DNA of 64,000 nucleotides from Daphnia carinata (lineage: Eukaryota), in contig NC_081331.1 in NCBI RefSeq assembly GCF_022539665.2, positions 8,122,001 to 8,186,000 of the forward strand, in the 5' to 3' direction. The notes beneath the pieces are model-generated. The model made no database searches. It was not told where the DNA came from and was given only the letters and a program-made list of their open reading frames with translations. This document shows, in pieces, positions 20,935 to 56,267 of this stretch. Position 1 is the first letter of the stretch. Each line of letters opens with the position of its first letter. The position numbers and the translations under genes are program-made.

Positions 20935-20978
20935 TTCGTTGGCGTTCAACATTCGTAGGTGAAATGCTGGAATTGTCT

Positions 20979-21194
20979 TCGTCCGAGGAATCGCCGTCGT
21001 CCGAGGAATCGCCGTCGTCCGAGGAATCGCCGTCGTCCGAGGAATCGTCGTCGTCCGAGGAATCGTCGTCGTCCGAGGAATCGCCGTCGTCCGAGGAATC
21101 GCCGTCGTCCGAGGAATCGCCGTCGTCCGAGGAATCGCCGCCGTCCGAGGAATCGTCGTCGTCCGAGGGCTCGTCGTCGTCCAAGGAATCGCCA
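20979..21194 (+). repeat. 18-bp minisatellite, 12 copies (TCGTCCGAGGAATCG[C/T]CG; reads SSEES[P/S] in the exon frame)
   Basis: Directly visible tandem array. It explains the overlapping repetitive ORFs at 20762-21417. Confidence 0.95.
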
Positions 21195-26028: not shown

Positions 26029-26219
26029 AATTACAAAGTTGGAAAACACGATGTGAATAACCGATGGGAATTGTAGTACTGCTCTTGCTCAGTCGAAATG
26101 GTTTACTACACTGAATCAAATTATGTTTGTCCTCTCACTTTACTGCGTCCAAAGTCACCCTGTTTCGATTGACTAGCCCTGCGGGTTACGACACGCGCAC
26201 CTGACAGGTAGTGACGTAA

Positions 26220-27190
26220 TAGCCAATATTCTTAGCGGTACTGGACACTCTACGGATAGCCACCTGCCGACGTCAGGCATCATCCCACTGCTCTACCTCC
26301 GCAACTTGGTTGACCCGCTCTACCCAATCTGCTCCACTTTCGTGGGATCTTCCTTCAAATACCGGTATCGTAGCTACAGCGGCCGAAGAGGGTCGGTTGT
26401 TTCCGTGTACCAGGGCCTGTAAATGGTGTTCACCTTGCTCTGCTGCCAGTTGCCTCAGGGCTGCGTTTTCTACTACCTGGTCGCGCAATGCCGCCATTAA
26501 CTCGTTGTGTTGCTGTTGCTGTGGCTGCTGAGCACGCTCTTGGGCAATGCCGGCTGTAAACTGGGCCAGAGCGGCAGTCAGTGCAGGATCCATGGCTGCA
26601 GTTGGCTTCTGTGGCTCTACTTCTGATTTTGGCTTTTCCTCGACCGGCGATAGATTAAATACAATGCTTCCCCTCGGGGACGCTACGCTAGGTGCTACAA
26701 GCCTGACCCTAGACACCTGCGTTTCCTTGGATGGTGAGCTCCCAGATGGCCCGGAACCACGTGTCCTAATGTGGTAGCAAGGACGGTCGAAACGCTCTAC
26801 CAACTCTTTCTTCGGAGGCATGCGACACTCCCGAGAAAAAAAAAACAAAAAACCACGCACAAACACACAAACAAACAAAAAAATAAACAAAGCAAAAACA
26901 AAAAAAGGAAACAAAGCTAAATGATTACTAGCTGCTAATTATCCACCACGGAACATACCATCACCTAACCCACCAAATGACTCCACGCTTAACAATAGGA
27001 AAACGCAATGAAAGCAGAATTCAAAATTTACGCAACGGAGAACGGCCAATAACCAGGGTACGAGCACCAACCTAAAAAACGTACAAGAAATGGGAAGATT
27101 AATCAGCGGGGAGTTAAGATGTCGAGGATATAACTAGATATTGCCGCGTGTCCAACACCTTCCTCAGCCGCACCATGTCTGTCACAATTT
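26220..27190 (-). mobile_element. 5' part of a second Ty3/Gypsy element: putative LTR end and PBS, leader and truncated gag
   Basis: Gag-like ORF from ATG 26821 (MPPKKELVERF...IPVFEGRSHESGADWVERVNQVAEVEQWDDA, stop, RRQVAI). The minus strand at about 27187-27158 reads ...TGTGACA gaca TGGTGCGGCTGAGG, resembling an LTR end followed by a PBS. Confidence 0.65.
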
Positions 27191-29037
27191 GCCGGCCGTT
27201 GTCGCGTGGTTTCCGAATGGCGGCGCGGATACACTTACCCTCATACAAATTACACAGCAAGAAAATATCTTCTGGGCGTAAGCTATTGCTGAACAAACGT
27301 GCGAAAGTGAAAATCAGACTTGCTCATCAGCGTTCATAAGGTTAAACTTCAAATTGATGCTGGAAGTAGTTTAACAAGGTCCAGGTTGAAACTCAACTAG
27401 AAGAAAATGGATTCTACCGGGCGAGCACGAGGCCGTTCCCGTGGAAGGGGACGTGGAGAGGAAGGATTGGATACCTTGACAAGAAGACCCGATTTGGCGC
27501 AGCAGCATGGAATTGCCCCCTATACTACACAACCACCACATGCAAGTGGACGATCCAGGGGAGGCATGCATCAAGAACCAGAAGGACGAGGACCTGCACT
27601 TTCATCCTCACACTCGGGAACTGGATCAGGGAGCCGGACAACCAGCGGCCCATCCAGTCGCGATACGCCGCAAGAACCATCATATACTGGACCAGCGCCT
27701 GGCAGAGCCTCGTCGGCCCTTCGTGGTGGGCCGGCCAGGCCTCATGCTGTTTCGTCAACCCGTGCTCCTCCAGGTGCTATGGCCGGTGGAGATACCGCAG
27801 CCAGCATGGGTCGTGGAGCAAGCCGTGGACGTGAGCAAAGGGATGTCCAGATTTATACTCGTCCTTCGGCGGAATTTATCAAACTGGGAAAAATCGGTAG
27901 CCCTATTCCCGTGACATCTAACTATTTTGAACTCATTAAGCGTCCTGATATGCACTTGTTGCAGTATCGTGTTGATTTCATTCCGGATGTAGACCACATC
28001 GGTGTTCGCAAGGCACTCATCCGAGTTCACGAAAGCGTCCTTGGAAAAAATCTTTTCGATGGAACTTTGTTATACAATGTTACTCGTCTTCCTCAGCCAT
28101 TGGAATTGTTTTCCAAGCGTGTCTCAGATGGATCAGATGTCAGAGTGAATTTCCGGCTAGTTGGAGAAATTCACAAGGAAGACGCCACCTACACTACGGT
28201 GATGAATATTATTTTACGTCGTTGCCTCGGCATGCTCAATTTAACCATGTGGAAACGGGACTATTATGATCCAGCAGCTCTTACTGAAATCCTCCAACAC
28301 TTCTTGAACGTTTGGCCTGGCTACTTGACCACCATCCGACATCATGAAGATGGATTTCTCCTCGGTGTCGAAATCATTCACAAAGTTTTGCGGAGAGACA
28401 CTGCCCTAGATGTCATGGATAGGATGCGTCAATCTGGGGGTGATATTCAGGCTTTGTGTAAAGCTGAACTTCTTGGGAAGGTTGTTATGACGCATTATAA
28501 CAAGAAAACATATCGAATCGACGATATTGACTTTACCAACTTTACCACTTTACCAGGAAAACGCAATGAAAGCAGAATTCAAAATTTACGCAACGGAGAA
28601 CGGTCAATAACCAGGGTACGAGACCAACCTAAAAAACGTACAAGAAATGAGAAGATTAATCAGCGGGGAGTTAAGATGTCGAGGATATAACTAGATATTG
28701 CCGCGTGTCCAACACCTTCCTCAGCCGCACCATGTCTGTCACAATTTGCCGGCCGTTGTCGCGTGGTTTCCGAATGGCGGCGCGGATACACTTACCTTCA
28801 TACAAATTACACAGCAAGAAAATATCTTCTGGGCGTAAGCTATTGCTGAACAAACGTGCGAAAGTGAAAATCAGAATTGCTCATCAGCGTTCATAAGGTT
28901 AAACTTCAAATTGATGCTGGAAGTAGTTTAACAAGGTCCAGGTTGAAACTCAACTAGAAGAAAATGGATTCTACCGGGCGAGCACGAGGCCGTTCCCGTG
29001 GAAGGGGACGTGGAGAGGAAGGATTGGATACCTTGAC
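26997..29037 (+). repeat. About 484-bp direct repeat (26997-27480 / 28555-29037): retroelement leader + piwi 5'UTR + first 25 codons
   Basis: The copies differ by 4 substitutions and a 1-bp indel. Period 1558 bp. Confidence 0.95.
27407..28538 (+). pseudogene. piwi: Intronless, 3'-truncated PIWI-clade Argonaute (aubergine/piwi-like): RG-rich N-terminus, N and L1 domains, start of PAZ. The ORF reads on into repeat sequence to 28690 (427 aa).
   Basis: GRARGRSRGRGRG and GRGASRGR motifs, plus TSNYFEL, QYRVDF, LFDGTLLY, RDYYDP, VWPGYLTTIRHHE, HKVLRRDTALD and VVMTHYNKKTYRIDDIDF. No introns over 1.13 kb, whereas neighbouring genes have short exons. Confidence 0.9.
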
Positions 29038-29038
29038 T

Positions 29039-29135
29039 ATCCATCATTGTGGGAAATACGCCTCCGAGCTCGTTATTATTTCCTTTTGTCTTAAATACCG
29101 TAAAGTCAGTCTTCCCACAAGGAAGATACTTTACA
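29039..29135 (+). repeat. 5' LTR remnant (last 97 bp only)
   Basis: Matches 47529-47625 with 1 mismatch and ends ...TTTACA. Confidence 0.93.
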
Positions 29136-29138
29136 TAA

Positions 29139-29149
29139 TGGTGGCAGCG
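29139..29149 (+). promoter_or_regulatory. Primer-binding site, tRNA-Leu-like
   Basis: TGGTGGCAGCG 3 nt after the LTR end, complementary to the ...CGCUGCCACCA 3' end of tRNA-Leu. Confidence 0.75.
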
Positions 29150-29169
29150 TTTTTCAGAGCTCTACCACA

Positions 29170-31966
29170 ATGATGGACGATGTTATGTCAGGTGGGCATA
29201 AACTTTCTCGTACACCTTTGAACACCCCGCTTATTCCTGTAACACCCGTAGTGCAAATCAATGACGAAACGATAGCTAAGTTCATTAGTTTCGAAAAATT
29301 GTCAGCTTCTTCCACGACCGTTCCGCATACATTGCAAGGCTGTCAGCCGTCAGAAAAAGGAACAGTAGATGTTAAGCAGTCGGCTTTTCCCATTTTAACT
29401 CCCAAAGTGCAGACAGATAACACCCAGTTGAAGAAATTGAGGTCTAACACGGCGTATGAGGCCGTATCTCCATTAGTTAAGCCTACCGCTAGGAGAATTT
29501 GGCCTGGTAGCAAAGCTTCCGTTACACCTACTCAAACCGCTCCATCTGTTTATGCAAGGTTAGCTTCTCGTTTTTCCCCCATAAAATCACCTGTGGGAAA
29601 CACATCAAAGACTAGTTTTCTCTCGAGCACTCTTTTAAGCTTTTTCCAAAAGAAAAGCCCAGTGAATGGACGGTCAACCCAAAGTGAGTCTCCATCACCT
29701 ATACCACGAGATCACGACCAACCAATCGAGAATATTCCCGGCACCAACGAGTCAGTTACCGTCCCTACTACTGACGCTCAGGTACCTCAAGGAGAGGGAA
29801 TTGGATTTCCAGTCAACCAATCCATTAATTTGGGAACAACTACGATCGTTGATGCAAACAATCCGGCTGCGGTACCAATACCAAGCCAACGTGACAACGG
29901 ATTTGAAAAACCCGAAGACACTCCTGAAAGCCTTGGGAGCAGTCCTTGAAACGATAGCAATTGGACAAACCAGGACAACGGCACAGGTTGCGGAGAACCA
30001 AGTGGCCGCGCTGACAGCAATCTTCACAACCTATGCGAGGGAGTTTACGATTTACCTACTAGGACAGACTTACAACATCGTCGAGTTACTGACATACACG
30101 CCGGCGAAGGACAAGGACCTGTTCAACTTTGTCCCCCAGGAAAGCTTGCTCAACAACCTCGAGGACAGGACATATTCCCTACTCGCAATCGAGATAGCGC
30201 AGTTCTCAACCTACCTAAAGGACACCCTGCGGGAGTACCAGCTGAAGTTCCTCAAGGACATCCTCCACCTGGTCCCTTACCTAAGAAAAGTTCAGCCCAT
30301 AAGCAGTTTGGAGGGATTATTGCCGGAACTGACATCGCTTCAGACCAAATTAAACAACTTCCAGACATCGGTGCAACCGGACGGGCAGCGAATAACGAAG
30401 GAAATCAGGGAAACACTCATTCCGGCTACCAACGAATTGAGACAGTTGCTATCATACATTCCGAGGACCCAGGAAGAACAGCAAACCACGCCGAGTCCGC
30501 AGGAATCGCCGCTGTCGGAACGCATTCCGAAGAGAAGGCGAGCACGCCAAAGAAACCGGCCTTCCAACCAGTCACGCACTCAACACCCTCCTCAAGCCCA
30601 GCAATCCAATCAGCAGGAAGATCTGATAGCGCAACTGAGGCGATTACGAACAGCATTTCAGGACACCCTCAGAATTCACGGCGAAAGACGTCGAATCCTC
30701 TCATATTCGATCCCGACATGGCCAAATCTTGTTCTCCTTCACGGGCTGCCACAGTCAACGACTTAAATGATTTTCAGACAAACCAACACACTTTTTCGCG
30801 CCTACAATTGCTTCCTTCCTTTTCGGGAAGTCCAATTTCTCGTTTTGACTCTTGGCTAGAATCTTTTGAAAGCATAGTTGATGGGGCAGCATGGTCAGAA
30901 GAAAAGATTATTCAGATGCTGCGAGCTAAAATAACAGATAAGGCTTTTTCAGTACTTCAAAACATTATCAGGCAGCATCCGCATGATTATGCGTCTATTA
31001 AAGAAGCGTTACTTGATCACTTTCATGGGGATGAAAACGTCGATGTCTATATAAAAAAATTCAATAAGGCTAAACGCAAACCAGGCGAAAAAATTCGTCG
31101 ACTATGCGCATCGCTTGCACGAGATTTTTAAGAAGGCGTATCCAGCGGGTTATGCAGAGAAATCGTTCACGATAATCCTTATGCAAAAATTTATCGAGGG
31201 GTTGGATTCCAAATTACAGGCCAAAGTACGTTATAAAGAATTTCGCGATTTTACCGAGCTTGTAGCATCAACGCGTATTTATGCCGTTCGTTTGGAAGCT
31301 TTAGAGACAGATCGGGAAAAACATGAGTTTGTTAGAGCAATCGATGGATCGTGTGACACAAAACATTCAGATTTGACGGAACTCAAGCAAATGTTAATCG
31401 ACCAGAAGGAAATAGTCAATAATGTCGTTGCTAATATTAGTCAAGGGAATAAAAATGCGGAGAGCCCGAAAGAAAACAGGGAAGACATTAGGGATGTTCT
31501 TCAGGAACTCACGCAAGCAGTCAAACAGCTCCAAAGGGACAAGAAAGATTATTCTTCTTCTCCAACAGGCAACCCTTATAAGAAACAAGTTTCGTTCCAA
31601 ACCAATAGCGGCAATCAAGACAGAAATTGGAGACCTCCTCCTCATCGACCCAATAATAACACCAATTCTTACCAAAATCCGGGATTCTCTAATAGACCTA
31701 CACAGTCCACGTCCTCGTTTTCCAGACCTTTTATTGATTCGAGAAATCGGCCTACTCAAAATGGAATAACTTGCAATTTCTGCGGTTTTCGTGGGCATAC
31801 ACAATCGGAATGCCGTAAATTCCAACGGCATAATTTAGAACAAGCACAGCCTCCAATTTGTTATTCTTGTCGTGAAATCGGACACAAATCGAATAACTGT
31901 CCTAAGTTCAGGAGCTCCGATAGGCCGAATATTCCAGCTCCCCCTCAGCGTCAGGGAAACCAATAG
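29170..31966 (+). pseudogene. gag: Long Gag: disordered N-terminus, capsid-like core, two CCHC zinc knuckles; one nonsense codon and one frameshift
   Basis: Frame 1 is open from 29170 to 31131 except TGA at 29947-29949. A one-base insertion near 31095 (GEKI / VDYAHRLHEIF) shifts into the 31115-31966 ORF. Motifs LPSFSGSPISRFDSWLESFE, QKFIEGL, CNFCGFRGHTQSEC and CYSCREIGHKSNNC. Confidence 0.85.
29666..30766 (+). CDS. Overprinted 366-aa ORF in the +1 frame of gag; amphipathic-helical-looking protein of unknown function
   Basis: Intact ATG-to-stop ORF lying entirely within the gag reading region. The start Met and three peptide blocks are conserved in the diverged relative at 1685-3130. Confidence 0.7.
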   Translation: MDGQPKVSLHHLYHEITTNQSRIFPAPTSQLPSLLLTLRYLKERELDFQSTNPLIWEQLRSLMQTIRLRYQYQANVTTDLKNPKTLLKALGAVLETIAIGQTRTTAQVAENQVAALTAIFTTYAREFTIYLLGQTYNIVELLTYTPAKDKDLFNFVPQESLLNNLEDRTYSLLAIEIAQFSTYLKDTLREYQLKFLKDILHLVPYLRKVQPISSLEGLLPELTSLQTKLNNFQTSVQPDGQRITKEIRETLIPATNELRQLLSYIPRTQEEQQTTPSPQESPLSERIPKRRRARQRNRPSNQSRTQHPPQAQQSNQQEDLIAQLRRLRTAFQDTLRIHGERRRILSYSIPTWPNLVLLHGLPQSTT

Positions 31967-31996
31967 ATATCAACTGTAACTTCGGGTCAGTTGATA
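31954..31996 (+). promoter_or_regulatory. -1 programmed ribosomal frameshift signal (gag-pol)
   Basis: Slippery G GGA AAC (31954-31960) in the gag frame, a 7-nt spacer, then a 9-bp stem TATCAACTG/CAGTTGATA (31968-31996). The -1 frame is open into the protease. Confidence 0.85.
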
Positions 31997-33898
31997 GGGA
32001 GCCTCAGTTAAAATCCCGACAAGTCGCAAAATTAACAACTATAACAAATGAATCGACCCCTAGAATTCCATTAAAAATTTTTCAGATACCGTTGCAAGCC
32101 TTATTTGATACAGGCGCGTCTAAAAGCATTATTCACGAGAGAATATTTCATAAGTTACCCCCGAGAGGTCAAGCGATCTGCAGTCAGCTTGATTTCGATT
32201 TGTATGATGTAGGGGAGAAAAAGTTACATACGCTGGGAAGAGTTACATTGCCCGTACGATACGGAGAGTCAGTTTTAAGACAAGAGTTTATTGTTACAAA
32301 TGGTGTTTCTGAAGACTGTATCCTTGGATGGGATGCAATCCAGAAGCACGGTTTTCGGCTTGACGGAGAAGCCAGGAGCATTTATTTAGCAAGGGATGAG
32401 CAGGGATCAGCCATCTCTAGGGTACCAGACATGGCAGTTACGACGGTCAAAAAGACGACGCTATTTCGTCAGACTTCGCTAGTAGTTGCAACGCAAATGA
32501 AAGGTTCATTTCCGTATGTCCCCCCTAATACCACATTTATGTTTACCCCAGCAGAGGATTTGCCGAACGGTATTTTTATTGAGGAATTCATTGGAAACGT
32601 ATCTAAAGATGGGAAATATCAAATTATGGTCGAGAATCATTCGTTAAATCAAGTCATACTTCCTAGGAACACTACATTAGGCGTAATTGAGATTATTCAT
32701 AACGTAATTGGGAAAATTGCTTTAAGTAAATTAGAGGAAAAGCCTACTATTAAAAGTGAGCCCGTTTTAATTTCAGAAGTCGACGCTGAATTTCAAGCTC
32801 CGCTCTCAAAACTATTAAATGACTTCCACGACTTGTTCGCAGCAAAAGATTCAGAATTAGGGAACACTAGTCTCATTAAACATACAATTGATACACAAGG
32901 AAGAGTCCCTATTCGACAACGCCCTTATCGAGTTTCAAATAATCAAAGAAAAATATTGGAAGATAAAGTACAGGAAATGTTGGATGCTAATGTGATCCAA
33001 TATTCACATTCGCCATGGGCTTCACCTGTGGTTTTAGTGGAAAAAAAGGGTGGAGAAGTAAGATTTTGCGTTGACTATAGGAAATTAAATAGTATTACAA
33101 AAAAGGATTCGTTTCCTATGCCGAGGATAGATGAAACATTGGACAAACTGTATGGGAAGAAATTTTTCACCACTCTTGATTTAGCTTCAGGTTATTGGCA
33201 AATTCAAGTTGATGAGCCGGCTATTGAAAAAACAACATTCGTAGTGGAAAATAACCTTTACGAATTTAAACGTATGGCATTTGGATTGTGCAATGCACCT
33301 GCGACATTTCAAAGACTAATGAATTATGTACTAAAAGACGTTTTGGGAAGTAAAGCGTTAGTTTACTTGGATGACGTAATCATCTTTTCAGACACTTTCG
33401 ACGATCACTTGAATGATATTCGGGAAATCTTTGAATTATTGAACAATGCCAATTTAAAATTAAAACTTAAAAAATGCCAGTTCATTAAAAGTTCAGTAAA
33501 TTATTTAGGCCATGTCATCTCGACTGATGGTGTTAAACCTGATCCGAGCAAAATTGAGAAAATAATTAATTATAAAAGACCCGCTTCGGTAGATGAAGTC
33601 AGATCATTTCTGGGTCTAGCTGGGTATTACAGACGATTTATTAAAAATTTTGGATCAATCGCCAAACCGTTAACCAGATTAACCCATAAAGAACTTAGCA
33701 GAAAACCTTTTAATTGGGGAAACGAGGAAAACATTGCTTTCGAAACCTTGCGTACATCTCTAGTGACTCCACCAGTACTGGCTTACCCCAATTTCAACGA
33801 GAAATTTTTCCTTTTCACCGATGCATGCGATTATGGCATTGGAGCGGTACTGTCCCAAATTCAAAATGGTCACGAGCACCCAATCGCGTATTCCAGTA
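31954..33898 (+). CDS. pol: Pol part 1: aspartic protease, reverse transcriptase, start of RNase H (interrupted by the CACTA element)
   Basis: ALFDTGAS, SPWASPVVLV, RFCVDYRKLN, LDLASGYWQI, FGLCNAPATFQR, YLDD and FTDACDYGIGAVLSQ. Confidence 0.95.
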
Positions 33899-34568
33899 CC
33901 CACATAGCACATCTCAGCCGTCGGATGTCCGATCCATGGCCGAATGTCCGTGTCTTCTATGGGCTGGCCCACGGATGTCCTTCGGCTAGTCTGGTTGGAT
34001 GTCCGATGGATGTGCAAAAATGATGTCCTAACAACATCCCTCGAGCAGACAAGAAGATCTTCAACAAATTTTTTTGAATATATTGAAAATAAAAATATTT
34101 TTAATAAATTTTTACTAAGTAGTTGCCTTTAACTCTAGAACCGTACATACCTTTTTTTGTTGTAGTGTGTAGGGAACACACAACCCTGAATGAAAGTGAC
34201 GGCATACAAACAGAATTATTTAAAAGATCCAATCTATTTTCGTCAACTTGTAATAAAAAAAAAAGGTGAGGCAGTACGAGGGGGACATAGCCAACTGTCG
34301 TTTGCTCATTATGGACGGAAACATCGAATTAACGACCATGGACTACATCCTTGACCTCTGCCGCTCTACCAGAGTTCCAGGTAAGACCCCAAACAAGTTT
34401 CTGGTAAAACTACTTTACATTTAAAAAAAAAGAGAAACATTACAGCTCACTCAACGATTTAAATTTAAGCAATGGACGGAGGTGACATTGTGGAACGGAA
34501 TGATGGATAAAGAGATTCCCAGTTGCAACTGTTTGTAGCCCAAATATTTGAGAGTGAGGCACACATTT

Positions 34569-35398
34569 TCAGATGTAAATCTGGCTGCCGTGTGATTGCA
34601 TCTGAACAACTAGATTGCTGTTGGCTTTCTTGCGTTCCACTGTCCTCTTGGCGTCCTATTTAGAATAGTTTGCTTGGTTTAGAATTATTTCATGGTGAAT
34701 TGCATGATGAGAACTTACGAAGTAGAAACTGGCTGTGGCAGCCATTCCGATGAACATGGCGATTACGGCAAACGCGTACGACCAAGAGAGGTAGTTGAAA
34801 TTTGGGTAGAGCATCCAGTCACGTCTCCAACATTGTCCACCAAAGACAGCCACCGACAGGAAGAGGCAAAAGGATTTCAAACCATTCATTAGTGCACAGG
34901 CAGACAGGATCTGCCACTGGTATCGGAATGTGAAGTTGAGCGGCCAACGAACAAGAAGCATTGTTGAGGCAATGTGGGCAGAGCAGGAAAATATCAAGGC
35001 CAGCGTCATAAAAGCCTGCACTGCCATCAGCCAACCTTTGGAGAGCAAATGAAAGAGTTGTGAAGTAGCCGGCAAAGGAAAGTGTGACTCTAAATTTACC
35101 TGGCAGCAACCATTCCCAAATCACAAAGTATGTCTTGCTGAAGACATAGTGGCAACCATCAACGAGGTCATCAAATTGGTAGTTTGGGTAACGGAATCTG
35201 CTAAAACAAAACTCCCAGAGACCCATGTTCTTGAACGGGCTGTATGTGTCTTGCCAAGAGACCAGCCAATGTGGACTGTAAACAAAGGGTAAATTGGCAT
35301 ATGAATGTTTGACAGAATTGGTTGGGATTACCTGGCAAATGACATAACCAACAGCATAAGTGATATAAAAGACAGAATGGATCCCAACATCAGTAAAC
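34569..35398 (-). CDS. pck: Claudin-family septate-junction protein (pickel/megatrachea-like): four intact exons inside the transposon; candidate first exon 35807-35726
   Basis: Exons 35398-35332, 35275-35100, 35035-34719 and 34655-34569 splice in frame at GT-AG sites: LLMLGSILSF...SPHWLVSW...NMGLWEFCF...GCH...LLPGWLMAVQAF...FGGQCWRRDWMLYPNFNYLSWSYAFAV...GSQIYI*. Claudin W-GLW-C-C signature and a terminal YI motif. Confidence 0.85.
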
Positions 35399-35926
35399 CT
35401 GTTAACGAAATAATTTCATTCACGTCATGTTGACAGTTACAGGCGCAAATCCCACTTGTCGTGTTTGTGAAAAACACATATAATACATGGTATTTAGAAA
35501 AATAATGGCCGCCTTTTTCCCCTATATATTAAATCAGCATTGTCAGATAACTTAAATGGCAGTGATATGTTCCAGCAGTTTATTAAATTTAAATTTACTT
35601 GAAATTACTATTTAATATGTAACGTAAAAACATCTACTTAAATTTCAACAGTGTTTTTATATAAGATAACTGTTTTATTAATAATAATTATTTGATAAGC
35701 AATTTTTTGAGAAGATACCATTTACCTGTGTTTAGGGAATGAACACCAAAAGCAAAAAAAATGGTAGTTCCGACTTCTTTCGAATGGGGATCTAGCGATT
35801 CAGGCATTCGTTTGGTAGCTGCCTTTGAGTCATGTGCTTTGTATGGTGTGGTTTGAATTTTTTGAAAATTAGCAGAACTTGGATTTTAAAGTGTGCATGA
35901 AAGACTTGCGAAACGTGTTCATCGCG

Positions 35927-36049
35927 CTGCCCAGCTGCCTTGCCGTACCCGCCCAGTTGGATTACCGAACCTGCCCAGTTGGCTTACCGGTCCTGCCCAG
36001 CTGCCTTGCCGTACCCGCCCAGTTGGCTTACCGGTCCTGCCCAGCTGCC
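35927..36049 (+). repeat. GC-rich, about 22-bp imperfect tandem repeat (GCCCAG core) in the CACTA leader
   Basis: Alternating CTGCCCAGCTGCCTTGCCGTACC and CGCCCAGTTGGCTTACCGGTC units. Confidence 0.8.
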
Positions 36050-36090
36050 TGGCTCTTCCAGCTCCCCTGCTGCCATCATTCTGTGGATAA

Positions 36091-39000
36091 ATGGATTCCC
36101 AAAACGTAAGTTAATATTAACCGGAATTTACCTTTTCAATATATTTTTCCATTTGAATTCCCGATTCCTTTTTTTACAATCGCCTCTTTAAGTTCGGCTT
36201 TTTCAGTTATTCCATTCCGTCGTCGCAAAATTTTTTTTCTCGCAATTGGAGCTTTTTTTTGCAGGGTATTTATTTTCCTTGTCCAAGTTTATACTTTCTT
36301 ATAGACATTTTTTCTAACGCTAACTTTTTGAGCTTACCGTTATGAGTAACAATGAAATTTTACCGAGCTCTCGAACAAAGAGGCGTCGGATTCAGAAAGA
36401 TTTACAACAACTTCGTTTAAGTTTAGTTAATGTTGAGGATATTGAAGTAGTAAGGGAGTCGTCGGACGAAGAGCGTTTTCCAAACGGCAATAATGGCATA
36501 GATTTTACTGAGGAAGAACACGCTGAAAATCTTTTCAGTGGTTTCGACGACGAGGTGTTAGCTTCTACTGAAGACGCATTTTCTATCGATAGCGATGTTT
36601 TTCCGGTTTCTTCTGAATCTGAATCTGAATCGACAGTTGACAGGGACGATGGTGCACAACCTGATGAAAGTGATTACGATGAGGAACACAACGGGTCGCA
36701 TAATTTACGCCATTTGCTTGCTTTATGGGCAGTTACATGGGGGGTTCATCAAAACGCAATTGATGCATTGCTAGCCATACTCCGTTTATTTCAATGGGGA
36801 TTAGATTTACCAAAAACCTGCCGAACCCTTCTGAAAACGCCTCGCAATGTCGACGTAAAATCACTTTCTCCCGGCAAGTATTACCACCATGGAATTTTAA
36901 AAGGTCTGGAATCAGTTTTAAACGTTATGCCGGCTTGTAGTGCTCTTGATCACGTCGACATTTTTGTTAATATTGATGGTCTCCCCATTTCCAAAAGCAG
37001 CGGTGGACAGTTTTGGCCAATTTTAGGGATCATCACCAATGCTAAATCTAGAAAAGTATTTCTTATTGGACTTTACCATGGTGATGCCAAACCTGATTCC
37101 ACAGAAGAATACCTTACAGACTTTATTTTGGAAGCTAAGGCTTTAAGTGAAAGTGGTTTTATTTTTCATGGCCGGCGCTTATCATTCAGAATATCCGCAT
37201 TCATATGCGACGCGCCTGCGCGTTCGTTCATTTTGAATACTAAAGGCCACACAGGTTATTTCGGTTGTGGGAGATGTATCCAACAAGGGGAATTTGAAGG
37301 TAGGGTAGTTTTCTTGGAAAGAAATTCGACTCTAAGAACTGATTACTCCTTTAGAAACCGCATTTATGAGGAGCATCACCATGGTGATAGTATTCTTGAG
37401 AACTTAGATTACCTTGATATGGCGAGGGATTTCCCAGGTGATCCAATGCACTTAATTGATTTAGGGGTGACGAGAAAGCTTTTATTGACGTGGATTAGAG
37501 GTCCACTCCCAAGAAGACTTCACAAAAGTTTAATAGACTCCATAAGCTCCCGCCTGGAAACTTTAAGCAAATTTATTCCAAGAGAATTCGCACGGCGTAC
37601 GAGATCATTGAAGTTTGTTGATCGCTTCAAGGCTACAGAATTTGGATTATTTAATAGCTGTGTTGGTCCTGTGGTTCTTTTGGGGATTTTGCCCAATCGA
37701 TTGTATAATAACTTTATCGTTTTTCATGTTGCAGTGCGAATTCTGTCATCATTCGCGTATTGCATAACGCACAATGATTATGCAAGGGAATTATTAGATT
37801 TATTTGTTAGGGAGTGTGAATCAATTTATGGCACATACTTCTTGTCCTTCAATGTCCATTCTTTGATTCACACTTGTGATGATGTTTTGCGTTTTGGTGC
37901 TTTGCCAAACTATTCAGCCTACGCTTTCGAAAATTATCTTTTTTCTTTAAAGAATCTTTTGCGCAAGTCCAATCAGGCATTGCAACAGGTAGTTAAACGT
38001 ATTCTGGAAATAGGACAATTCCAGAATGCGTGTTACAATGCAAAATCATCTAAAACTGGACGTTTTTTTAAACAACATGATAGTGGTCCTTTAATTCCCC
38101 ACCTCGTATTTTCCAAGCAATTTAAGGAAATGCAATTGGGTCCCTGGTTTCTAAGTTGTAAGGGACCTGATCATTGTGTTTATCTTGATTCTTCTATTGT
38201 TTTGGTCGAAAACATCATTCGCGGCAAGAATGGTGATTTCATTATTGGCAGGCGTTTTCAAGTAAAACGTTCACTCTTCTCTTATCCTCTACCGTCGTCG
38301 TCGTACGAAATATATACGGTGGGAGCTATATCAGAATTACTTGAAGCGTGGCCAGTGGCTGAAATTAAATGCAAGGCGGTCATGTTGCCAACTTTTTCGG
38401 GAAACAGTTGCGCAATGGACGGTACGTTTTCGGTTTTTCCTCTTTTGATGGAGGCACACACTTAGGGAGTGAAGCAATTGGGGTGAAGGGGGGAGTAATG
38501 AACTTTATTCTGATTTTACTTTTCTTTTATTTAGTCTAAACTTTTTTATTTTTCCCTTTTTATTGCGCAATACTCTCTAATTAGACCGGTGTAACGATAC
38601 ACATCCACTAGGAGTAGAATAAATGTACGATGTTGCAAAAAATAGGGGTGGTGCTATAAGCTGGTGAGCTACACCGTCTTTTTTTGTTTTGTTTTTTATT
38701 GTGGAATAGCACCATTTCTTATTATTGGAAGGGCCGGACGACGATCCATGGGTGCAATCAGTTCCTATTTCATGGTACGACAATGGATTCTGCTGGTGGC
38801 CTCCTAAGTCCAAGTCTAAGGATGTGTCCCGCTTTATAAACTTAGGCTACGAACCTAACAAGAAAACTTGGGAGTCTTATCCAGCTAGGGTCAGGAAAAC
38901 CTACGGTATTTTTTTATATTTTTTATCTCTACTTTTCGTTAATTTTGATAAAAATTAGCAACATATGCTGAAGCTAGAAGACATGAAAATAAAGTAGTAC

Positions 39001-40309
39001 AAAATGAGGACATCGCAATAACAGAAGATGAAATGGACAGGAGAATCAGGAGAACTAGGAAGATCAAACTCCCGTTCGACATCAGTGTTTCCCCTCCCCC
39101 TTCGAAGGGCAAACAGTTGAAGTCAAGATATAGGGAAATTGTGTCTTCTTCGGATGACGACAGTTGTCCTATTCCTCCAGTTCCTCCACGTAAAATAATT
39201 TTAAGTAGGTTTATTAATCTTTACTTTCAATCAATTCTGCGTTAATTCAATGTATTATTTTTTTTAGATAGATTGAGCGTTGCTGGAAGCCCGGCCAATA
39301 AAAGTGGGAATGGTGGGAATGCACTACCAACGTGCTCCGAGCTTATGCTTCCCCATTCAAATCCCGATGCGCAATCAGATGATAGTATTGACCATTATTC
39401 ACCTGCAGGTAATATTTCGTTTGATTTATAGTAATTTTATTAATAACAACTATTAATAATACACTGTTTTCCTTTTCAAATGAAAGGCACATCCAAGTCC
39501 ATTACATGTACAGCTCCACCTGTTTCTGTAGTTCCAATAAGAAGCTCCACTACGACTAAAAGGAGTAGCTTTGTCGAGATCAGAAATGGAGGTAAGCTTT
39601 AAAGTTTAGATTTTTATTAATTTCATTTATATATTTTTAATATACTTTTAGAATCCCGCGACGAGTTTCTTCAGCGTGGCATTATAACCATTGGCCATGG
39701 CACACGCGACAACAACGCCATCAGTGCAGCTTTACTGGAACGTCTCGATCGTATTGAGACTGCGTTTGTCGCCATGAGAAAGTCAGATGGAGATGCCAAC
39801 GAGGATTTCATGCAAATGCTGCCCCTCAACTCTATGGATGATTTTTACATATTCAACGACGATTTGAAAAGCAAATCAATGTCACAACGTTTGGTAATTT
39901 TTTTTAAATTATTAAAATTTGAATTAAATTAAACTTCAGGTGTTGTCTGTTTGTTTGTTTTTTAAATGTTTTCTAGAAAACACACCTGATCGCAATAGGG
40001 GGAAACACCCCAAGAACAATTGTTAGATCGATCGCCCGGCGGCTTATGACCAACGAACTAGGCAAATCTTTCAGCTGGTTTGGACATCGTAATAACAAAA
40101 AGCTAGCCGATACCAACATCGGAAAAGTGATAATTGGTATTTATTTTAAATATTCATGTTATCCGTTTCATTCGTTTATAATACGTATTGATCTTTCAGC
40201 TGCATCGGTACGTAACACGCCATTGATTACAGAGGCAGATGTTAAATCAGCCATGATTGACATGCTGCGACACTGTAAAGACAAACCTCGCACGGTCCCT
40301 GTCCTATGA
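36091..40309 (+). CDS. Second transposon gene (DUF4806-like C-terminus), multi-exon; the transposase lies in its predicted first intron
   Basis: Predicted micro-exon ATGGATTCCCAAAAC|GTAAGT (36091-36105) joins in phase 0 to 38710 (HHFLLLEGPDDDPWVQSVPISWYDNGFCWWPP...). Later exons give LPLNSMDDF, IGGNTPRTIVRSIARRLMTNELGKSFSWFG and MLRHCKDK, with a stop at 40309. Confidence 0.7.
36342..38465 (+). CDS. CACTA/EnSpm (Mirage-like) transposase, 707 aa, intact single exon
   Basis: LPKTCRTLLKTP, NIDGLPISKSS..FWPILG, CDAPARSF..TKGHTGYFGCGRC, DPMHLIDLGV, RFKATEF, FNVHSLIH and SAYAFENYL, all typical of animal CMC transposases. Confidence 0.9.
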   Translation: MSNNEILPSSRTKRRRIQKDLQQLRLSLVNVEDIEVVRESSDEERFPNGNNGIDFTEEEHAENLFSGFDDEVLASTEDAFSIDSDVFPVSSESESESTVDRDDGAQPDESDYDEEHNGSHNLRHLLALWAVTWGVHQNAIDALLAILRLFQWGLDLPKTCRTLLKTPRNVDVKSLSPGKYYHHGILKGLESVLNVMPACSALDHVDIFVNIDGLPISKSSGGQFWPILGIITNAKSRKVFLIGLYHGDAKPDSTEEYLTDFILEAKALSESGFIFHGRRLSFRISAFICDAPARSFILNTKGHTGYFGCGRCIQQGEFEGRVVFLERNSTLRTDYSFRNRIYEEHHHGDSILENLDYLDMARDFPGDPMHLIDLGVTRKLLLTWIRGPLPRRLHKSLIDSISSRLETLSKFIPREFARRTRSLKFVDRFKATEFGLFNSCVGPVVLLGILPNRLYNNFIVFHVAVRILSSFAYCITHNDYARELLDLFVRECESIYGTYFLSFNVHSLIHTCDDVLRFGALPNYSAYAFENYLFSLKNLLRKSNQALQQVVKRILEIGQFQNACYNAKSSKTGRFFKQHDSGPLIPHLVFSKQFKEMQLGPWFLSCKGPDHCVYLDSSIVLVENIIRGKNGDFIIGRRFQVKRSLFSYPLPSSSYEIYTVGAISELLEAWPVAEIKCKAVMLPTFSGNSCAMDGTFSVFPLLMEAHT

Positions 40310-40867
40310 GTCCCATCATCATTCCATTCATCATCCATTCACAAAGAAAAAAATTGTTTTTTTTTTTATGTTTCTCGTCTATATTCACAGTCAGTCACAG
40401 TCACACAGATACAGTCAGCCCGAATAATGTTGAAGCAATGTTTTGTTTTTGTTTTTGTAGTCAGACAAATGATTTCTTTATGAATCTGTTTTCCTTTTTT
40501 TGTTTTTGATCTGCATATGGTTGTGCAACACAAGGTTTCTCATGTTCATTAATCTGGTCATGTTTCAATACAAAGATCAAAAAATAACAACAGTCTTTTC
40601 TATTTCACGATTTTATTTTATTAATCAATAAAACGAATGAATATGCAGATATCCCTTACATGTCCAAATTATAGCCGTAAGAAGTCCGGTCAGATATCCT
40701 TCGGATGTCTGACGGCGCTGTTTTGGGCGGTCAAAACCAACAAAAAAACATCCGTCGGACATCCAAATCGGATTTCGGGCTGTCCGACGGATGTCAACAG
40801 GATGTACCTTATATCCGACCTCAACATCTAGCGGACATCCCACGGCCAGACTTGTGCTATGTGGGTA

Positions 40868-41540
40868 GACAGCTAACGAAGGCAGAAGCTAAATACAGTA
40901 CGACTGAAAAAGAGGCACTTGCGGTTATCGATGCGATTAAGCATTTTCGACATTACCTTTTAGACCAACCTTTTGAGATCATAAGTGATCATCGTCCACT
41001 TCAATGGCTTAAAAATCAGAAAGATAACAATGGGAGATTAGGAAGATGGGCTATCCTGTTGGCCGCAACGAATTATGAATTAAAATACAGACCGGGACGT
41101 ATTCATCAAAACGCGGATTGCTTGTCACGCTTAAAAATAGCTAGTATCCAAACCGAACGTAATATTAAATTAATTTGTGAAAGACAATTAGAAGACGACC
41201 TTTGCATAGTCATTCGAAATTATTTAGATAACGGTGAACTTGAAGAAGAATTTCTCCAATCGAAACCAGATTGGGTAAAAGAAATCGAGTATTTTGAAGT
41301 TATTGACGGTACGCTTTACCGGCACGTGCTGCCATCTTCTGATAACAAAGGAAACGAAACTCACCATCAGTTGGTCTTACCTACATCGTTACGTCATCTA
41401 GTGCTCAAAGAACTACATGATGCACCGATGAGTGGACATTTAGCCTTTTATAAAACCTATTTGAAAGTAAAGAATCATTATTATTGGCCAAATATGAGGA
41501 AAGACATAAAAAAATATTGTCAGGCTTGTGAGGTGTGCAT
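40868..41540 (+). CDS. pol: Pol part 2: remainder of RNase H and the integrase H2C2 zinc-binding domain
   Basis: TTEKEALAV, SDHRPLQWL, RLGRWA, NADCLSR and LHDAPMSGH...YWPNM...CQACEVC. Confidence 0.9.
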
Positions 41541-41745
41541 AATAATATTATTTAAAAAAAAATAAAACATTAATTTTATTTTTTGTTTATTTTTTCCTTT
41601 TATTAGAAAGACGTCGAGTCATGAAACTGATTCTATAACACTATATTCACAGTTTTTTTTTTTTTTTTTTTCTTTTTTTTCAGCTTGTAGCTCTAAACGT
41701 GGAATAGTGAGACTTTTAGAGACGATGAGGATAAACACCCTCCTC
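41541..41745. other. About 200-bp AT-rich insertion disrupting integrase
   Basis: A/T homopolymer-rich segment with stops between CQACEVC and (NY)RALLHPHEIAKAPFQVIGMDF. Boundaries approximate; no TSD recognised. Confidence 0.65.
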
Positions 41746-43061
41746 ATTCATCAAATTACAGAGCGTTATTGCATCCTCATGAAATTGCAAAGGCCCCTTT
41801 TCAAGTTATAGGCATGGATTTTCTAGGCCCTATCACACCAGTTTCGCCCAATGGAAACAGTTACATTTTAGTTATCACAGATTATTTTAGCCGATGGGTG
41901 GAAGCTGTTGCTTTAAAGGATCAGACTGCGCAGACAACAGCAGAATGTGTGTACAAAACAATAATAGTTAGACACGGTATGCCTAAAGCTATTGTTTCTG
42001 ATAGAGGTACTAATTTCACATCGAAATTGTTCAGATCCTTTTGTAAAAAGTTCAACATTGAACAACGCTTAACAACTTCTTATAATCCAGCTAGTATCGG
42101 CAAAACTGAAAGGTTCAATAGAACATTAACAACAATGTTGAGGAAAGAATTGAAAGACGGCGAGCACGCAAATTGGGAAGATTTACTGGATGATGTGTTG
42201 TTTGCTTATCGTAGTTCTGTCCATTCTTCTACACTGGACACCCCTTATTACTTATTACACGGTAGAGACCCCAATTTACCCATCAATGAATTTCTTGACG
42301 CGTCCCCAAAAACATTTATATCCGCATCGGATTACGTAGGTAACTTAGCCGAACGCTTGCGCTATAGTTTCCAACGCGTCCGTGAGGAGAGCGAAAAAGC
42401 CAGAAAACGTCAAAGGGAGCAATATAATAAAAGGGCGAATGTAAAACAATATTTGGTAGGAGATAGAGTCTTATTAGATATTAGAGTTGTAAAAGAGGGC
42501 GATAGTAGGAAATTTACTTCCAAATATAAAGGCCCTTATAGAATTGTAAAAGTATATTCCAATAATACTGTCGACATAGCCGACAATTCATATATATGTA
42601 TACGTACGCACGTTAACCGTTTAAAGCCCCTATATGAAACGATGTTATGGAAGGATGAACATTGTCCCCCTATCGAGTCGCCTTCAATATTCGAGAATCG
42701 ATTCCGTAAATCGATCTCGACCCAAACAATGGGAAGTGAGGAACAACTAGAACAAGAAACAAGTGAAGTAGAAAATGTGGAACCGGAAAAAGGACATCCA
42801 GATAGCGTAGATGTGGAGAATATGGAATCCGAAACAGTGGAAATTCAAAACATGGTGTCGGACACCGTGGAGTTAGCGACAACGAGGCTGGGAATTGACC
42901 ATCACCTCAATCTCACACCAATTGCCGAAGATTATTCCAATGATAATCATGAAACGCAGCAAACAGCGCCGGATGTCGTTCCGTCAGCAACAACGACACC
43001 ACAAAACGCAACCGGACGCCCGCAAAGGAATAGACAATTGCCAATGCGTTTCAGATATTAA
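41746..43061 (+). CDS. pol: Pol part 3: integrase catalytic core, GPY/F module and acidic tail
   Basis: IGMDFLGP, ITDYFSRW, IVSDRGTNF, TERFNRTL and KYKGPYRIV. Confidence 0.92.
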
Positions 43062-43235
43062 ATCTGATAACTCATCCGCATGCAAGTCTGCTGATCGCGT
43101 CTCAGAGAAAAAAAAACAAACTCGAAAGTATATAACAGTGAGTAGATCGAAAAGAGCCACATCTTTCCGACAACTCGTTATAGTCACAACTCTAACAAGA
43201 TTTATCTCCACACCGCAAAGCATCATCAAAGTAAG

Positions 43236-43658
43236 ATGGAAAACCAAACTAGCGTTCAACACGAACAAGACACCGTCGAAGGGACTGGTGACGACGTGCA
43301 AGCTAACGAAGTGGTGACAACAACGGAGCCCACTACTGACTTGTCCTGGGAGCCAGTGGCAGAAAACACGGTCGAGGGGGTCAACCCAACACCTCATTCC
43401 CCAGACCAGACTAGCCAAGACTCTTGGGATCAGGCCCATCGCAATTACGAGCGACGTCTCGACGAGAAAACCAACATACTCACCACAAGACTTAACGCCG
43501 ACCTCTTCGCTGAAGATTGGGCCAGCGCAGTTTACACCTTGAAAAGAATTCTGGACTTAGATCCAGCTAAACGCCACCCACCACTATACAACTGGCCATC
43601 AGAGCTGTGGAACACAGCTAACAAAAGGCCAAGGCGCGATTGGTACGACCAATTGTAA
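43236..43658 (+). CDS. Accessory 140-aa ORF between pol and env, function unknown
   Basis: Clean ATG-to-TAA ORF with an acidic N-half and a Trp-rich C-half. Confidence 0.55.
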   Translation: MENQTSVQHEQDTVEGTGDDVQANEVVTTTEPTTDLSWEPVAENTVEGVNPTPHSPDQTSQDSWDQAHRNYERRLDEKTNILTTRLNADLFAEDWASAVYTLKRILDLDPAKRHPPLYNWPSELWNTANKRPRRDWYDQL

Positions 43659-44419
43659 GGCGGAAGAAAGAAAAAAAAAAGAAGCGGAAGAAAACTTCTG
43701 TTTTTCCCTAATACCGTAGTCAATATGTTTGTTCCATATAAATAAAATAAGGTTATATGCCAAAAGAAATCATAAACCGTAAAGGGAAACCCACTACCTT
43801 ACCTAGGGTTGCGTATAGACAGAAAAACGAATAAGTCTATACTACATGCATAACTTGACCGTCTGTCAAGGTATCCAAATAAACCAATCCACACCATATA
43901 TATAAAAAACTAAAATTTTTCTGTCACTCGCCACACGTTATCCACGTCAGACTTCCTTACGGCAAATGACACAAGTTGCCGAAAATGCATTCTCGCATTT
44001 TCCATTTCCCTTATTCCTATTCTTTCTCTCTCTCGCGCCAGGTAGAGTTTTACCTTCTATCCCTTCCTTCTTTTTTCGTAGACAATATACTCCCCTTTTC
44101 TTCCTTATACGCGTTACTATTGCCTACGTTTTGCCACAGGACAAGTAACATGTCTCGTTCTCAACACAATATGTCTGGAGCATATGGCCTTGTTTCAAGC
44201 CCTGAGGGATAATTTCCATTTCTTCTCATATATCACATTCTTTATCTCTGTCTCTCCCTTCCATTCTCTTTCTTTCTTTCTTTCTCACTAAGTTGGACTT
44301 AGAAAAAAACTTAACTTTCGCATTTTTCTGTTTCATCATATATATTTGCTAAATTTATATGAACGCCTTCATGTAGCTTAATATATCAACTACTTCGCAA
44401 TTGATGAGTTATATAGTCA

Positions 44420-44485
44420 AACTGGGGATTCGAACCTCAGAACCTTTGGCGTCACAGCTGAGAGCGCTACCATTGAGCTATTAGC
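44420..44485 (-). other. tRNA-derived A-box/B-box sequence in the retroelement non-coding spacer
   Basis: Minus strand TAGCTCAATGG (44480-44470) ... GGTTCGAATCC (44436-44426). Confidence 0.6.
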
Positions 44486-45061
44486 TAATATTTTACACCT
44501 GGCGTAAAAGATTGGGTAACATACCGATTGTTCCCGTTAACTGCATTTTTCTTTGTGTGCCGTAGTATACTTTTTTCATTTATGCGCTATCCCGACCGCA
44601 TTGTTAGAACTTAGGAAAAAATTCGAACACTGCGCGTGACCTTTCACGGCAAAAACTTTTTCCGCCGTAAACTTTTAAACGTTTTCTTCTCGTCCTCCCC
44701 GCTAACCTATATTATATTTTATTGTTTTCTCTTTTCGATAATTAAGCATATCTTCTCCTCTTTCCAACGATACTAGTTATTATGATGGATAAAATTTTCT
44801 TCCCCCCGAAAACACAGTTATATTCCAGTGCCCTATATTTTTCTTCCCTTTTGCCGTAGCTAACTAGGAAAAGCCGACGGAAAAATAAGTTAACCTTTCA
44901 AAAGCCGTAGACTATTTTTCATTTTCGTTTTCTTACTACTTTTCTTCTCGTGTTTGCTTCCATTTTATAACACCCACATGATAAAGTTATATATGTTTGT
45001 CAGTTACATTGTTCCCTTTTATTCTTGTATGTTTTTTCTATATATTCTTCCGTATTTAGAA

Positions 45062-46756: not shown

Positions 46757-46789
46757 TTACGGGACGTAATCTCACGCCGCCGGGAGCGA

Positions 46790-47625
46790 TGTAACGAAGC
46801 CAATATACGCCTTCTTATATTCTCATGCTTCCACTTATATCTTATACCTATATTCTCTTCTGCAACATCTTTAATAAGTAATTAGTATAAACATGTCAAT
46901 TGCAACACCATATATACGCAACACGGGTGACCTAGATGAACACCTGCTAGCTAGCTGACGCATCCATGTGTCATCAGCATCACGCCACTTATAAAACATC
47001 TTTCATTGGCGCCCATCATCGCATCATTATCACGCCATTTTAAACATCTTTGATTGGTCGCAAATACTCGCACAGCAACTCACCAATTTGCCAATATGCG
47101 AAGTGTAATCGTGAACACAAAATATGGGAAAGATCAGACAAGGACCCGCGTCTGAGCAAAGTAGTCGCCTGAATTCATTCGTGTTGCTCCTATCTTGATT
47201 AGTAGTATTGCGCAGTAAATTGTACTCTAGTGGAAATCTTATTTGCTTAACTTGCCTTAATTTGCATCTGTTCAACTTAATTACTCTGGGACAGTGCCTT
47301 TGTCCTTTCTTTAAACACTTGTTCAATCCATTTTGATTGTGAGTTGACTTCGTGAGCGTGAGGTTATCTCGTTCGCTTCCGTGTCGATTCCTTTCCGCTA
47401 CCTACTCGTGTTATCACGGTAAGACTTGGTTACAATTGTCCCTCTCTTTCCCTCTCTTTATTTTCCCTACTGTATCTGAATTCCTCTTATGTCTTGCTTC
47501 TTGTAGTATGCTTAACGTAGAACAATAAATCCATCATTGTGGGAAATACGCCTCCGAGCTCGTTATTATTTCCTTTTGTCTTAAATACCGTAAAGTCAGT
47601 CTTCCCACAAGGAAGATGCTTTACA
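46790..47625 (+). repeat. 3' LTR (836 bp)
   Basis: TGTAAC...TTTACA termini, TATAAA at about 46990 and AATAAA at 47524. The last 97 bp match the 5' remnant. Confidence 0.9.
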
Positions 47626-56252: not shown

Positions 56253-56267
56253 ACTTTGTAGATTTGC

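What the first reader, a model, noticed from the sequence alone, without database searches (positions are those of the whole stretch)
26997..28690. Intronless truncated piwi/aubergine copy fused to LTR-retroelement sequence
Seen: 5'UTR plus about 377 uninterrupted codons of a PIWI-clade gene with no introns, stops or frameshifts, ending inside PAZ. It joins directly to the leader/LTR end of an oppositely oriented Gypsy element and reads through to a 427-aa ORF. Established: N-terminal RG motifs of PIWI proteins bind Tudor domains, and MID/PIWI domains are needed for guide binding and slicing. Inference: a retrocopy of the main anti-transposon effector embedded among transposons. It could encode a Tudor-binding, slicing-dead decoy, or yield antisense or piRNA species against the parental gene.
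Basis: partly seen in the sequence, partly recalled or inferred. Interest (0 to 1): 0.78.

Follow-up and report, generated by a model that had tools for sequence, protein, structure and literature searches.

The report
Young spliced piwi fragment between retrotransposons
In a water flea genome, an intron-free copy of the first 40% of a transposon-defence (piwi/aubergine) messenger RNA sits between two broken retrotransposons; it is most likely a young dead pseudogene, though it could make antisense RNA against its parent gene.

Summary
The core observation holds. Bases 27280-28539 are a processed copy of one Daphnia Aub/Piwi paralog. Five of five introns of an orthologous genomic contig are precisely absent, and the copy matches a relative's mRNA-like contig without gaps (56 differences in 1261 nt). 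It stops about one third into PAZ.

The 3' join is a 15-nt slippage filler followed by a second copy of 26997-27480 (Gypsy leader, PBS-like site, LTR end, piwi 5'UTR and 24 codons). That copy is cut off by the last 97 nt of another Gypsy's 5' LTR. The 50-residue tail comes from filler plus antisense Gypsy leader. No paired LTRs enclose the piwi, so the unit is probably not mobile.

The open frame is not evidence of selection. About five neutral substitutions are expected, and the copy has Y215N and P296L at conserved sites. Expression, small RNAs and copy number could not be tested.

Best reading: a young retrocopy, likely made by Gypsy machinery and rearranged by end-joining, now decaying. 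Transposon capture of piwi/aub with piRNAs against the host gene is already known in Drosophila; a crustacean LTR-associated case would be new.

The parts
26230..26821 (-). 5' half of a Ty3/Gypsy-type gag, with an in-frame stop after codon 182 and cut off near 26230 (dead fragment, left element)
   Evidence: About 65% identical to aa 1-201 of the 436-aa P0158, whose cluster holds D. magna CCHC proteins. Atlas look-alikes of P0158 carry Retrotrans_gag/Ty3_capsid (a lead only).
26822..27279 (-). Left element leader, PBS-like site (27175-27158) and about 100 nt read as the 3' end of its 5' LTR (27180-27279)
   Evidence: On the minus strand TGTGACA is followed by 4 nt, then TGG, then leader and gag. 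LTR identity is inferred: no intact relative could be fetched, and the PBS was not matched to a tRNA.
27280..27406 (+). piwi/aub 5'UTR, beginning at the apparent mRNA 5' end
   Evidence: Contig X1 matches from 27279 with only a 24-nt loose piece before it (which I recognise from memory as sequencing adapter); X17 begins at 27287.
27407..28539 (+). Intronless Aub/Piwi coding fragment, codons 1-377: RG motifs, N domain, L1 and the first third of PAZ
   Evidence: RG runs at aa 5, 12 and 140.
28540..28554 (+). 15-nt filler made of repeats of the last piwi octamer (templated insertion)
   Evidence: Read directly from the sequence. The parental mRNA goes on differently after 28539 (loose ends).
28555..29037 (+). 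Second copy of 26997-27480: antisense Gypsy leader (gives the read-through tail and the stop at 28690), PBS-like site, LTR end, piwi 5'UTR and 24 codons from ATG 28964
   Evidence: 98.97% over 484 nt, 4 substitutions and 1 indel. At 27319 the second copy keeps the letter seen in X1 and X17.
29039..29135 (+). Last 97 nt of the right Gypsy's 5' LTR, starting at the final A of its AATAAA; the other 739 nt, including both TATAAA boxes, are missing
   Evidence: 99% match to 47529-47625. The 3' LTR is 46790-47625 with TATAAA at 46886 and 46990 and AATAAA at 47524.
29136..47625 (+). Right Gypsy element (gag with CCHC knuckle, RT, RNase H, integrase, env-like ORF, 3' LTR), its pol interrupted by a 7-kb insertion
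   Evidence: Pfam hits; insertion ends.

Best explanation
This is an intron-free copy of the 5' 1.26 kb of one Daphnia Aub/Piwi mRNA, likely reverse-transcribed by Gypsy machinery, then likely cut short by a DNA-level tandem duplication and deletion, and probably now a non-functional pseudogene. Step 1 (RNA origin shown; the enzyme inferred): the cDNA ran to the mRNA 5' end and was joined head-to-head to the LTR end of a Gypsy element. This fits a template switch inside the particle, with the piwi cDNA extended on the element's minus-strand DNA through LTR end, PBS, leader and gag. Step 2 (inferred): a break at 28539 was repaired onto 26997 with a slippage-templated 15-nt filler, giving a 1558-nt tandem duplication. 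The PAZ truncation is therefore a duplication breakpoint, not necessarily the end of the cDNA. Step 3 (inferred): a deletion removed the rest of the second unit and most of the right Gypsy's 5' LTR, leaving a 1-nt insertion. The original 3' end of the retrocopy is lost. Both flanking elements are broken and no LTR pair encloses the piwi, so the unit would not move on its own.
For: 5 of 5 ortholog introns are absent, and introns at matching positions occur in paralog contigs L004 and L006. X1 record 1 matches 27279-28539 with 0 gaps and continues as normal piwi. The A-B-A' layout, the filler and the 1-nt join are read directly. The two repeat copies differ by 4 substitutions in 483 nt, i.e. 0.41% per copy (95% range 0.11-1.06%). 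Neutral change at that rate predicts 3.5 amino-acid changes (1.0-9.0) and an 82% chance of no nonsense codon. Observed: 4 changes at sites invariant in 8 of 8 orthologs; Y215 is Y in 61 of 99 and P296 is P in 54 of 98 non-Daphnia homologs. The left gag is stopped and cut off, and the right element's LTR and pol are broken. Another rearrangement junction (106-nt inverted duplication) lies at the right element's far end.
Against: Window-lineage changes are 14 synonymous to 8 non-synonymous (pN/pS 0.19), not significantly different from the X1 lineage (16 to 5; Fisher p 0.51; 43 coding sites, from 53 of 56 X1 differences). That branch mixes parent-gene history with copy history, so relaxed selection is suggested, not shown. 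At the indel rate seen in the repeat pair, no frameshift in 1131 nt has only about a 31% chance (based on one indel). The copy keeps the 5'UTR and native ATG. No data on expression or copy number were available. The Gypsy origin of step 1 is not proven, because microhomology could not be tested without the intact element.
Confidence: 0.68

Rival explanations
1. The locus is an antisense/piRNA source against the parental Aub/Piwi paralog. The duplicated Gypsy LTR end and leader lie 3' of the piwi fragment and point leftwards, so any minus-strand transcript from there or from the right element would read 1.26 kb of antisense piwi, which could be processed into piRNAs that slice the parent mRNA.
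For: Orientation is read directly. The copy is probably about 99% identical to its parent (estimate), above the roughly 80% at which Drosophila captures stopped giving host-gene piRNAs (PMC13534243, passages). Precedents: piwi/aub capture by Drosophila telomeric elements; Pxyfem partial cDNAs in transposon graveyards (PMC9674220, abstract and section 10); a hypothesised piRNA trans-silencing of Rec8 paralogs in D. pulex (bioRxiv 2021.11.05.467411, section 6).
Against: No promoter is shown, and the LTR remnant is only about 100 nt. The 22 proTRAC piRNA loci of D. magna are uni-directional, whereas transposons in this window lie on both strands among host genes. With no mobile unit, the transposon gains no copy-number benefit. 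Five or so other Aub/Piwi paralogs would buffer any effect; one paralog contig is only 69-84% identical in the matched pieces (L004).
Confidence: 0.14
2. The 427-aa protein is made and acts as a slicing-dead, Tudor-binding decoy.
For: Native 5'UTR, ATG and RG motifs (aa 5, 12, 140) are kept in an open frame. That symmetric dimethyl-arginine RG motifs bind Tudor domains is established knowledge (recalled).
Against: No promoter is shown, and no AATAAA lies on the + strand between the stop (28690) and 31448 (first ATTAAA at 30349). PAZ is cut at 48 of 123 positions. Conserved-site changes Y215N and P296L. No similar truncated Daphnia protein appeared among 10 hits of 234-748 aa, and the exact protein is not in the collection. 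An intact frame is expected by chance.
Confidence: 0.05
3. The locus is one copy of a non-autonomous, piwi-carrying Gypsy derivative that has been or is mobile; the window shows a damaged copy.
For: LTR-mediated retrocopies can re-transpose as non-autonomous elements (PMC5131818, passages). The copy is joined to PBS and leader sequence on both sides.
Against: The repeat extends through PBS and leader, so it is not an LTR pair. The flanking elements are different and oppositely oriented. No piwi sequence resumes elsewhere in the 64 kb. The rest of the genome was not available.
Confidence: 0.08
4. The duplication or the whole chimera is an assembly artefact.
For: No DNA run of this species was found to confirm the junctions: 24 runs listed, none holding half of the words.
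Against: The two repeat copies differ at 5 places, one polarised by relatives. The filler is a templated repeat. The only N gap is 10 kb away at 16554-16653. The 1281-nt frame shows no indel error.
Confidence: 0.05

Closest known systems
LTR-mediated partial retrocopies in metazoans (PMC5131818; passages read)
   Same: Partial, intron-free mRNA copy joined to LTR-retrotransposon sequence, with no poly(A) or target-site duplication seen and short de novo fillers at junctions (2-26 nt there; 15 and 1 nt here).
   Different: There the retrocopy replaces internal ORF sequence of an element whose two LTRs are expected to remain. Here the neighbours are two different elements pointing away from each other, both missing most of the 5' LTR, with a later tandem duplication. 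Microsimilarity could not be tested.
piwi/aub and nxf2 capture by Drosophila telomeric Jockey-type elements (PMC13534243, passages read; PMC7785250, search listing only)
   Same: A piRNA-pathway gene fragment joined to retrotransposon sequence, with potential antisense piRNAs against the host gene.
   Different: Those fragments are 140-235 bp inside multi-copy, non-LTR families with demonstrated piRNAs. This one is 1260 nt, LTR-associated, seen at a single broken locus, with no small-RNA evidence.
Pxyfem retrocopies of PxyMasc in Plutella (PMC9674220; abstract and section 10 read)
   Same: Partial spliced cDNA next to LTR-element fragments in a transposon-rich region, with a short tandem duplication at one junction (15 bp there) and no intact LTR pair.
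   Different: Pxyfem is multi-copy, W-linked and shown to make silencing RNAs. Nothing of that is shown here, and the target here would be a PIWI gene.
Daphnia AUB/PIWI expansion and its truncated copy 317739 (PMC2680839; passages read)
   Same: The parent belongs to this clade, and a truncated probable pseudogene of the clade is already recorded in D. pulex.
   Different: The passages seen do not describe that copy as processed or LTR-linked. The paper's supplements were not read.

Membership tests
Processed retrocopy | Precise loss of parental introns | tested here: met
   5 of 5 introns of ortholog contig L005 (aa 124-378) absent. The ortholog is from another Daphnia species; the same-species parent was not available.
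Processed retrocopy | Colinear with the mRNA and not extending into parental promoter DNA | tested here: inconclusive
   Colinear from 27279 to 28539. Relatives' contigs stop at 27279 and 27287, a weak hint for the 5' end. That 27180-27279 is LTR rather than parental upstream DNA is inferred.
LINE-type (TPRT) retrocopy | Poly(A) tail and target-site duplication | tested here: inconclusive
   Neither is present, but the original 3' end appears to have been lost by rearrangement.
LTR-mediated retrocopy (PMC5131818) | Flanked by LTR-retrotransposon sequence | tested here: met
   Gypsy-type gag and leader on the left, Gypsy LTR remnant on the right.
LTR-mediated retrocopy (PMC5131818) | Retrocopy replaces internal sequence of an element that keeps both LTRs | tested here: not met
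   Different elements in opposite orientation; no LTR pair encloses the piwi.
LTR-mediated retrocopy (PMC5131818) | Microsimilarity at the switch points | tested here: inconclusive
   No intact left element found. The 3' joins show a 15-nt filler and a 1-nt insertion.
Anti-silencing gene capture (TART-A/nxf2, Drosophila piwi/aub captures) | Fragment carried by a multi-copy mobile family | not testable with these tools
   No genome held. Within the window there is only the local duplication.
Anti-silencing gene capture (TART-A/nxf2, Drosophila piwi/aub captures) | Antisense piRNAs with ping-pong or phasing on the host mRNA | not testable with these tools
   No RNA holder listed for this stretch.
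Functional PIWI Argonaute | Complete PAZ, MID and PIWI domains | tested here: not met
   PAZ 1-48 of 123; no PIWI-domain hit; the alignment ends at Siwi 363 of 899.

The most novel reading that the evidence does not exclude
A Gypsy particle captured the mRNA of its own silencer, and a later duplication placed a leftward-pointing Gypsy LTR end and leader behind it. The locus now makes antisense piwi RNA that feeds piRNAs against one Aub/Piwi paralog: an LTR-built, crustacean counterpart of the Drosophila telomeric-element captures of piwi and aub.
Probability: 0.14. Interest if true: 0.72.

Novelty: new member of a known kind. Interest (0 to 1): 0.36.

Why it matters
As a dead copy it is a clean, young example of RNA-based duplication in Daphnia, with three readable junctions. 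If it makes piRNAs against its parent, it would extend transposon capture of piwi/aub from Drosophila non-LTR telomeric elements to an LTR context in a crustacean. Copy-specific variants and unique junctions make that directly testable with one small-RNA library. My searches found no report of a piwi retrocopy: six exact phrases gave 0 papers, and the listings showed no Daphnia case by title or abstract start. The library lacks most subscription papers, and no supplements were read.

Tried and rejected
No whole genome is held, so copy number and the same-species parent could not be examined. Sequencing-run search: 24 runs, all small share (0.05-0.09), no RNA holder listed; this is no evidence on expression. 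Four runs laid on 26000-29700 gave no cover of the left Gypsy or of any junction; they are other species, so this proves nothing. Five runs in all were laid (X1, X4, X7, X13, X17). Neither the 427-aa protein nor the gag fragment is in the protein collection. The near-length search gave no Daphnia truncated or fused piwi among 10 hits. The left gag found no relative in viral contigs. Earlier findings: nothing in 3 look-ups.

Rejected: that A and A' are LTRs of a mini-element (the repeat includes PBS and 180 nt of leader); that the right Gypsy simply inserted into piwi (piwi does not resume after 47625); that the parent is intronless; that the open frame shows selection. The lineage dN/dS comparison was not significant. 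No structure or complex prediction was run, because a model built on homolog alignments would not tell whether the fragment is stable, and methylated arginine cannot be modelled.

Full report
What it is. The ORF at 27407-28690 encodes 427 aa. Residues 1-377 are the N-terminal part of a PIWI-clade Argonaute: Piwi_N plus PAZ positions 1-48 of 123, aligned to Siwi 4-363. The best relatives form one Daphnia ortholog cluster: 96.6% to D. carinata P0118, 93.9% to D. magna and D. sinensis, 86-88% to D. pulex, D. pulicaria and D. galeata, and 72-73% to the nearest paralogs. The window is thus from a Daphnia near, but not identical to, D. carinata. D. pulex has six AUB/PIWI genes plus a truncated probable pseudogene (PMC2680839, passages).

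RNA origin. A metagenome scan gave 7 loci. L005 is a genomic ortholog of the parent, with several exon pieces 100% identical to P0001. Its five GT-AG introns over aa 124-378 (59-71 nt) are all absent, and its six exon pieces map end to end on 27777-28539 with no gap. Introns at matching positions occur in the paralog contigs L004 and L006. L005 does not cover aa 1-123, so introns there were not tested against the ortholog. A 3265-nt contig of run X1 matches 27279-28539 with 56 differences and 0 gaps, then continues as ordinary piwi; X17's contig begins at 27287. This places the apparent mRNA 5' end at about 27280, a weak hint since these are contigs of other species.

Anatomy. Left: a minus-strand gag fragment, about 65% identical to the first 201 aa of a 436-aa Daphnia-cluster protein with a CCHC knuckle. 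Atlas look-alikes of that protein are Retrotrans_gag/Ty3_capsid (a lead). The fragment has an in-frame stop and ends near 26230. Upstream of it lie a leader, a PBS-like TGG site at 27175 and an LTR-like end at 27180 (inferred). The piwi copy follows head-to-head. After 28539 come 15 nt built from repeats of the last piwi octamer, then 28555-29037, a 99% copy of 26997-27480. The read-through tail is therefore filler plus antisense leader. The second copy restarts piwi at 28964, runs 24 codons, and is joined by one base to the last 97 nt of the 5' LTR of a plus-strand Gypsy. That element's intact 3' LTR (46790-47625) shows that 739 nt, both TATAAA boxes and the AATAAA are missing from the 5' copy. 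Its pol is interrupted by a 7-kb insertion, and a 106-nt inverted duplication starts at its 3' end. No other piwi sequence lies in the window.

How it likely arose. The piwi match starts at the apparent mRNA 5' end and abuts an LTR end of opposite sense. This fits a cDNA completed inside a Gypsy particle and extended on the element's minus-strand DNA through LTR end, PBS, leader and gag. This step is inference; joining after insertion is not excluded. The A-B-A' layout with a templated filler fits a 1558-nt tandem duplication by alternative end-joining (that such fillers mark polymerase-theta repair is recalled knowledge; reverse-transcriptase slippage could do the same). A deletion into the right element's LTR followed. 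The PAZ cut is then a breakpoint, and the original 3' end, which would separate LINE from LTR mechanisms, is gone.

Is it under selection? I classed 53 of X1's 56 differences; 43 are coding. Those shared with organism-B runs (window lineage) are 14 synonymous and 8 non-synonymous, and the rest are 16 and 5 (pN/pS 0.19 versus 0.11; Fisher p 0.51). This does not show relaxation, because the branch includes the parent gene's history. Four window residues sit at positions invariant in 8 of 8 orthologs (P113H, N210S, Y215N, P296L), and two more are unseen at variable sites. Y215 and P296 are also the majority residue in 61 of 99 and 54 of 98 non-Daphnia homologs. The repeat pair gives 0.41% change per copy (0.11-1.06%). 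At that rate neutral drift predicts 3.5 amino-acid changes (1.0-9.0), an 82% chance of no nonsense codon and roughly a 31% chance of no indel. The data fit neutral decay of a young copy; the numbers are small, and the retrocopy may be older than the duplication.

Function. A decoy protein needs a promoter and a stable product; none is shown, and no AATAAA follows the stop before 31448. Antisense output is geometrically possible, because the duplicated LTR end and leader point leftwards into the piwi fragment. But only about 100 nt of LTR remain, and transposons here lie on both strands among host genes, whereas the 22 proTRAC piRNA loci of D. magna are uni-directional (bioRxiv 2021.11.05.467411, passages). 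Expression, small RNAs and copy number were untestable.

Known kinds. It works like the LTR-mediated partial retrocopies of PMC5131818 (passages) but fails the enclosing-LTR feature, so I file it only as a processed retrocopy. Its possible function is known from Drosophila telomeric elements: seven captures of piwi or aub, 140-235 bp, with piRNAs against the host gene (PMC13534243, passages; PMC7785250, listing only). Pxyfem is the closest anatomical parallel with a shown function (PMC9674220, abstract and section 10). Searches for a piwi retrocopy in print found none (listings only). No supplements were read; Additional File 2 of PMC2680839 may bear on the truncated D. pulex copy.

Verdict. 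Real, young, RNA-derived and most likely dead (0.68). Antisense/piRNA source 0.14, mobile derivative 0.08, decoy 0.05, artefact 0.05. Interest 0.36.

Noticed in passing
window 33899-40865: A 7-kb insertion in the right Gypsy's pol, with inverted ends starting CCCACATAGCAC and TA on both sides. It holds a 707-aa ORF (36342-38465) with no Pfam hit (CACTA/EnSpm-like by recall only) and a minus-strand claudin-like gene that appears to keep introns (about 34659-35400; Claudin_2 E 4e-4, below cut-off). It looks like host-gene capture by a DNA transposon.
   Followed up: partly
window 47625-48172: A 106-nt inverted duplication (99%) begins exactly at the end of the right Gypsy's 3' LTR and encloses an exon that looks like part of a DnaJ-domain gene (label recalled; translation). 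It is another rearrangement junction.
   Followed up: partly
window 55504-60706: Minus-strand element with tyrosine recombinase (Phage_integrase E 2e-15), RT and split inverted repeats: DIRS-like.
   Followed up: no
window 44978-46756: 592-aa env-like ORF of the right Gypsy with a weak rhabdovirus glycoprotein fusion-domain hit (E 0.0099, below cut-off).
   Followed up: no
window 25213-25886 and 49100-52330: Tyr/Thr-rich repeat genes in inverted orientation (66-86% alike) flank the whole mobile-element block.
   Followed up: no
window 20059-21240: A 347-nt direct repeat (99%) next to an 18-nt tandem array of about 12 or more units.
   Followed up: no
window 1683-2878: Minus-strand remnant 70-75% like the right Gypsy's gag region.
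   Followed up: no
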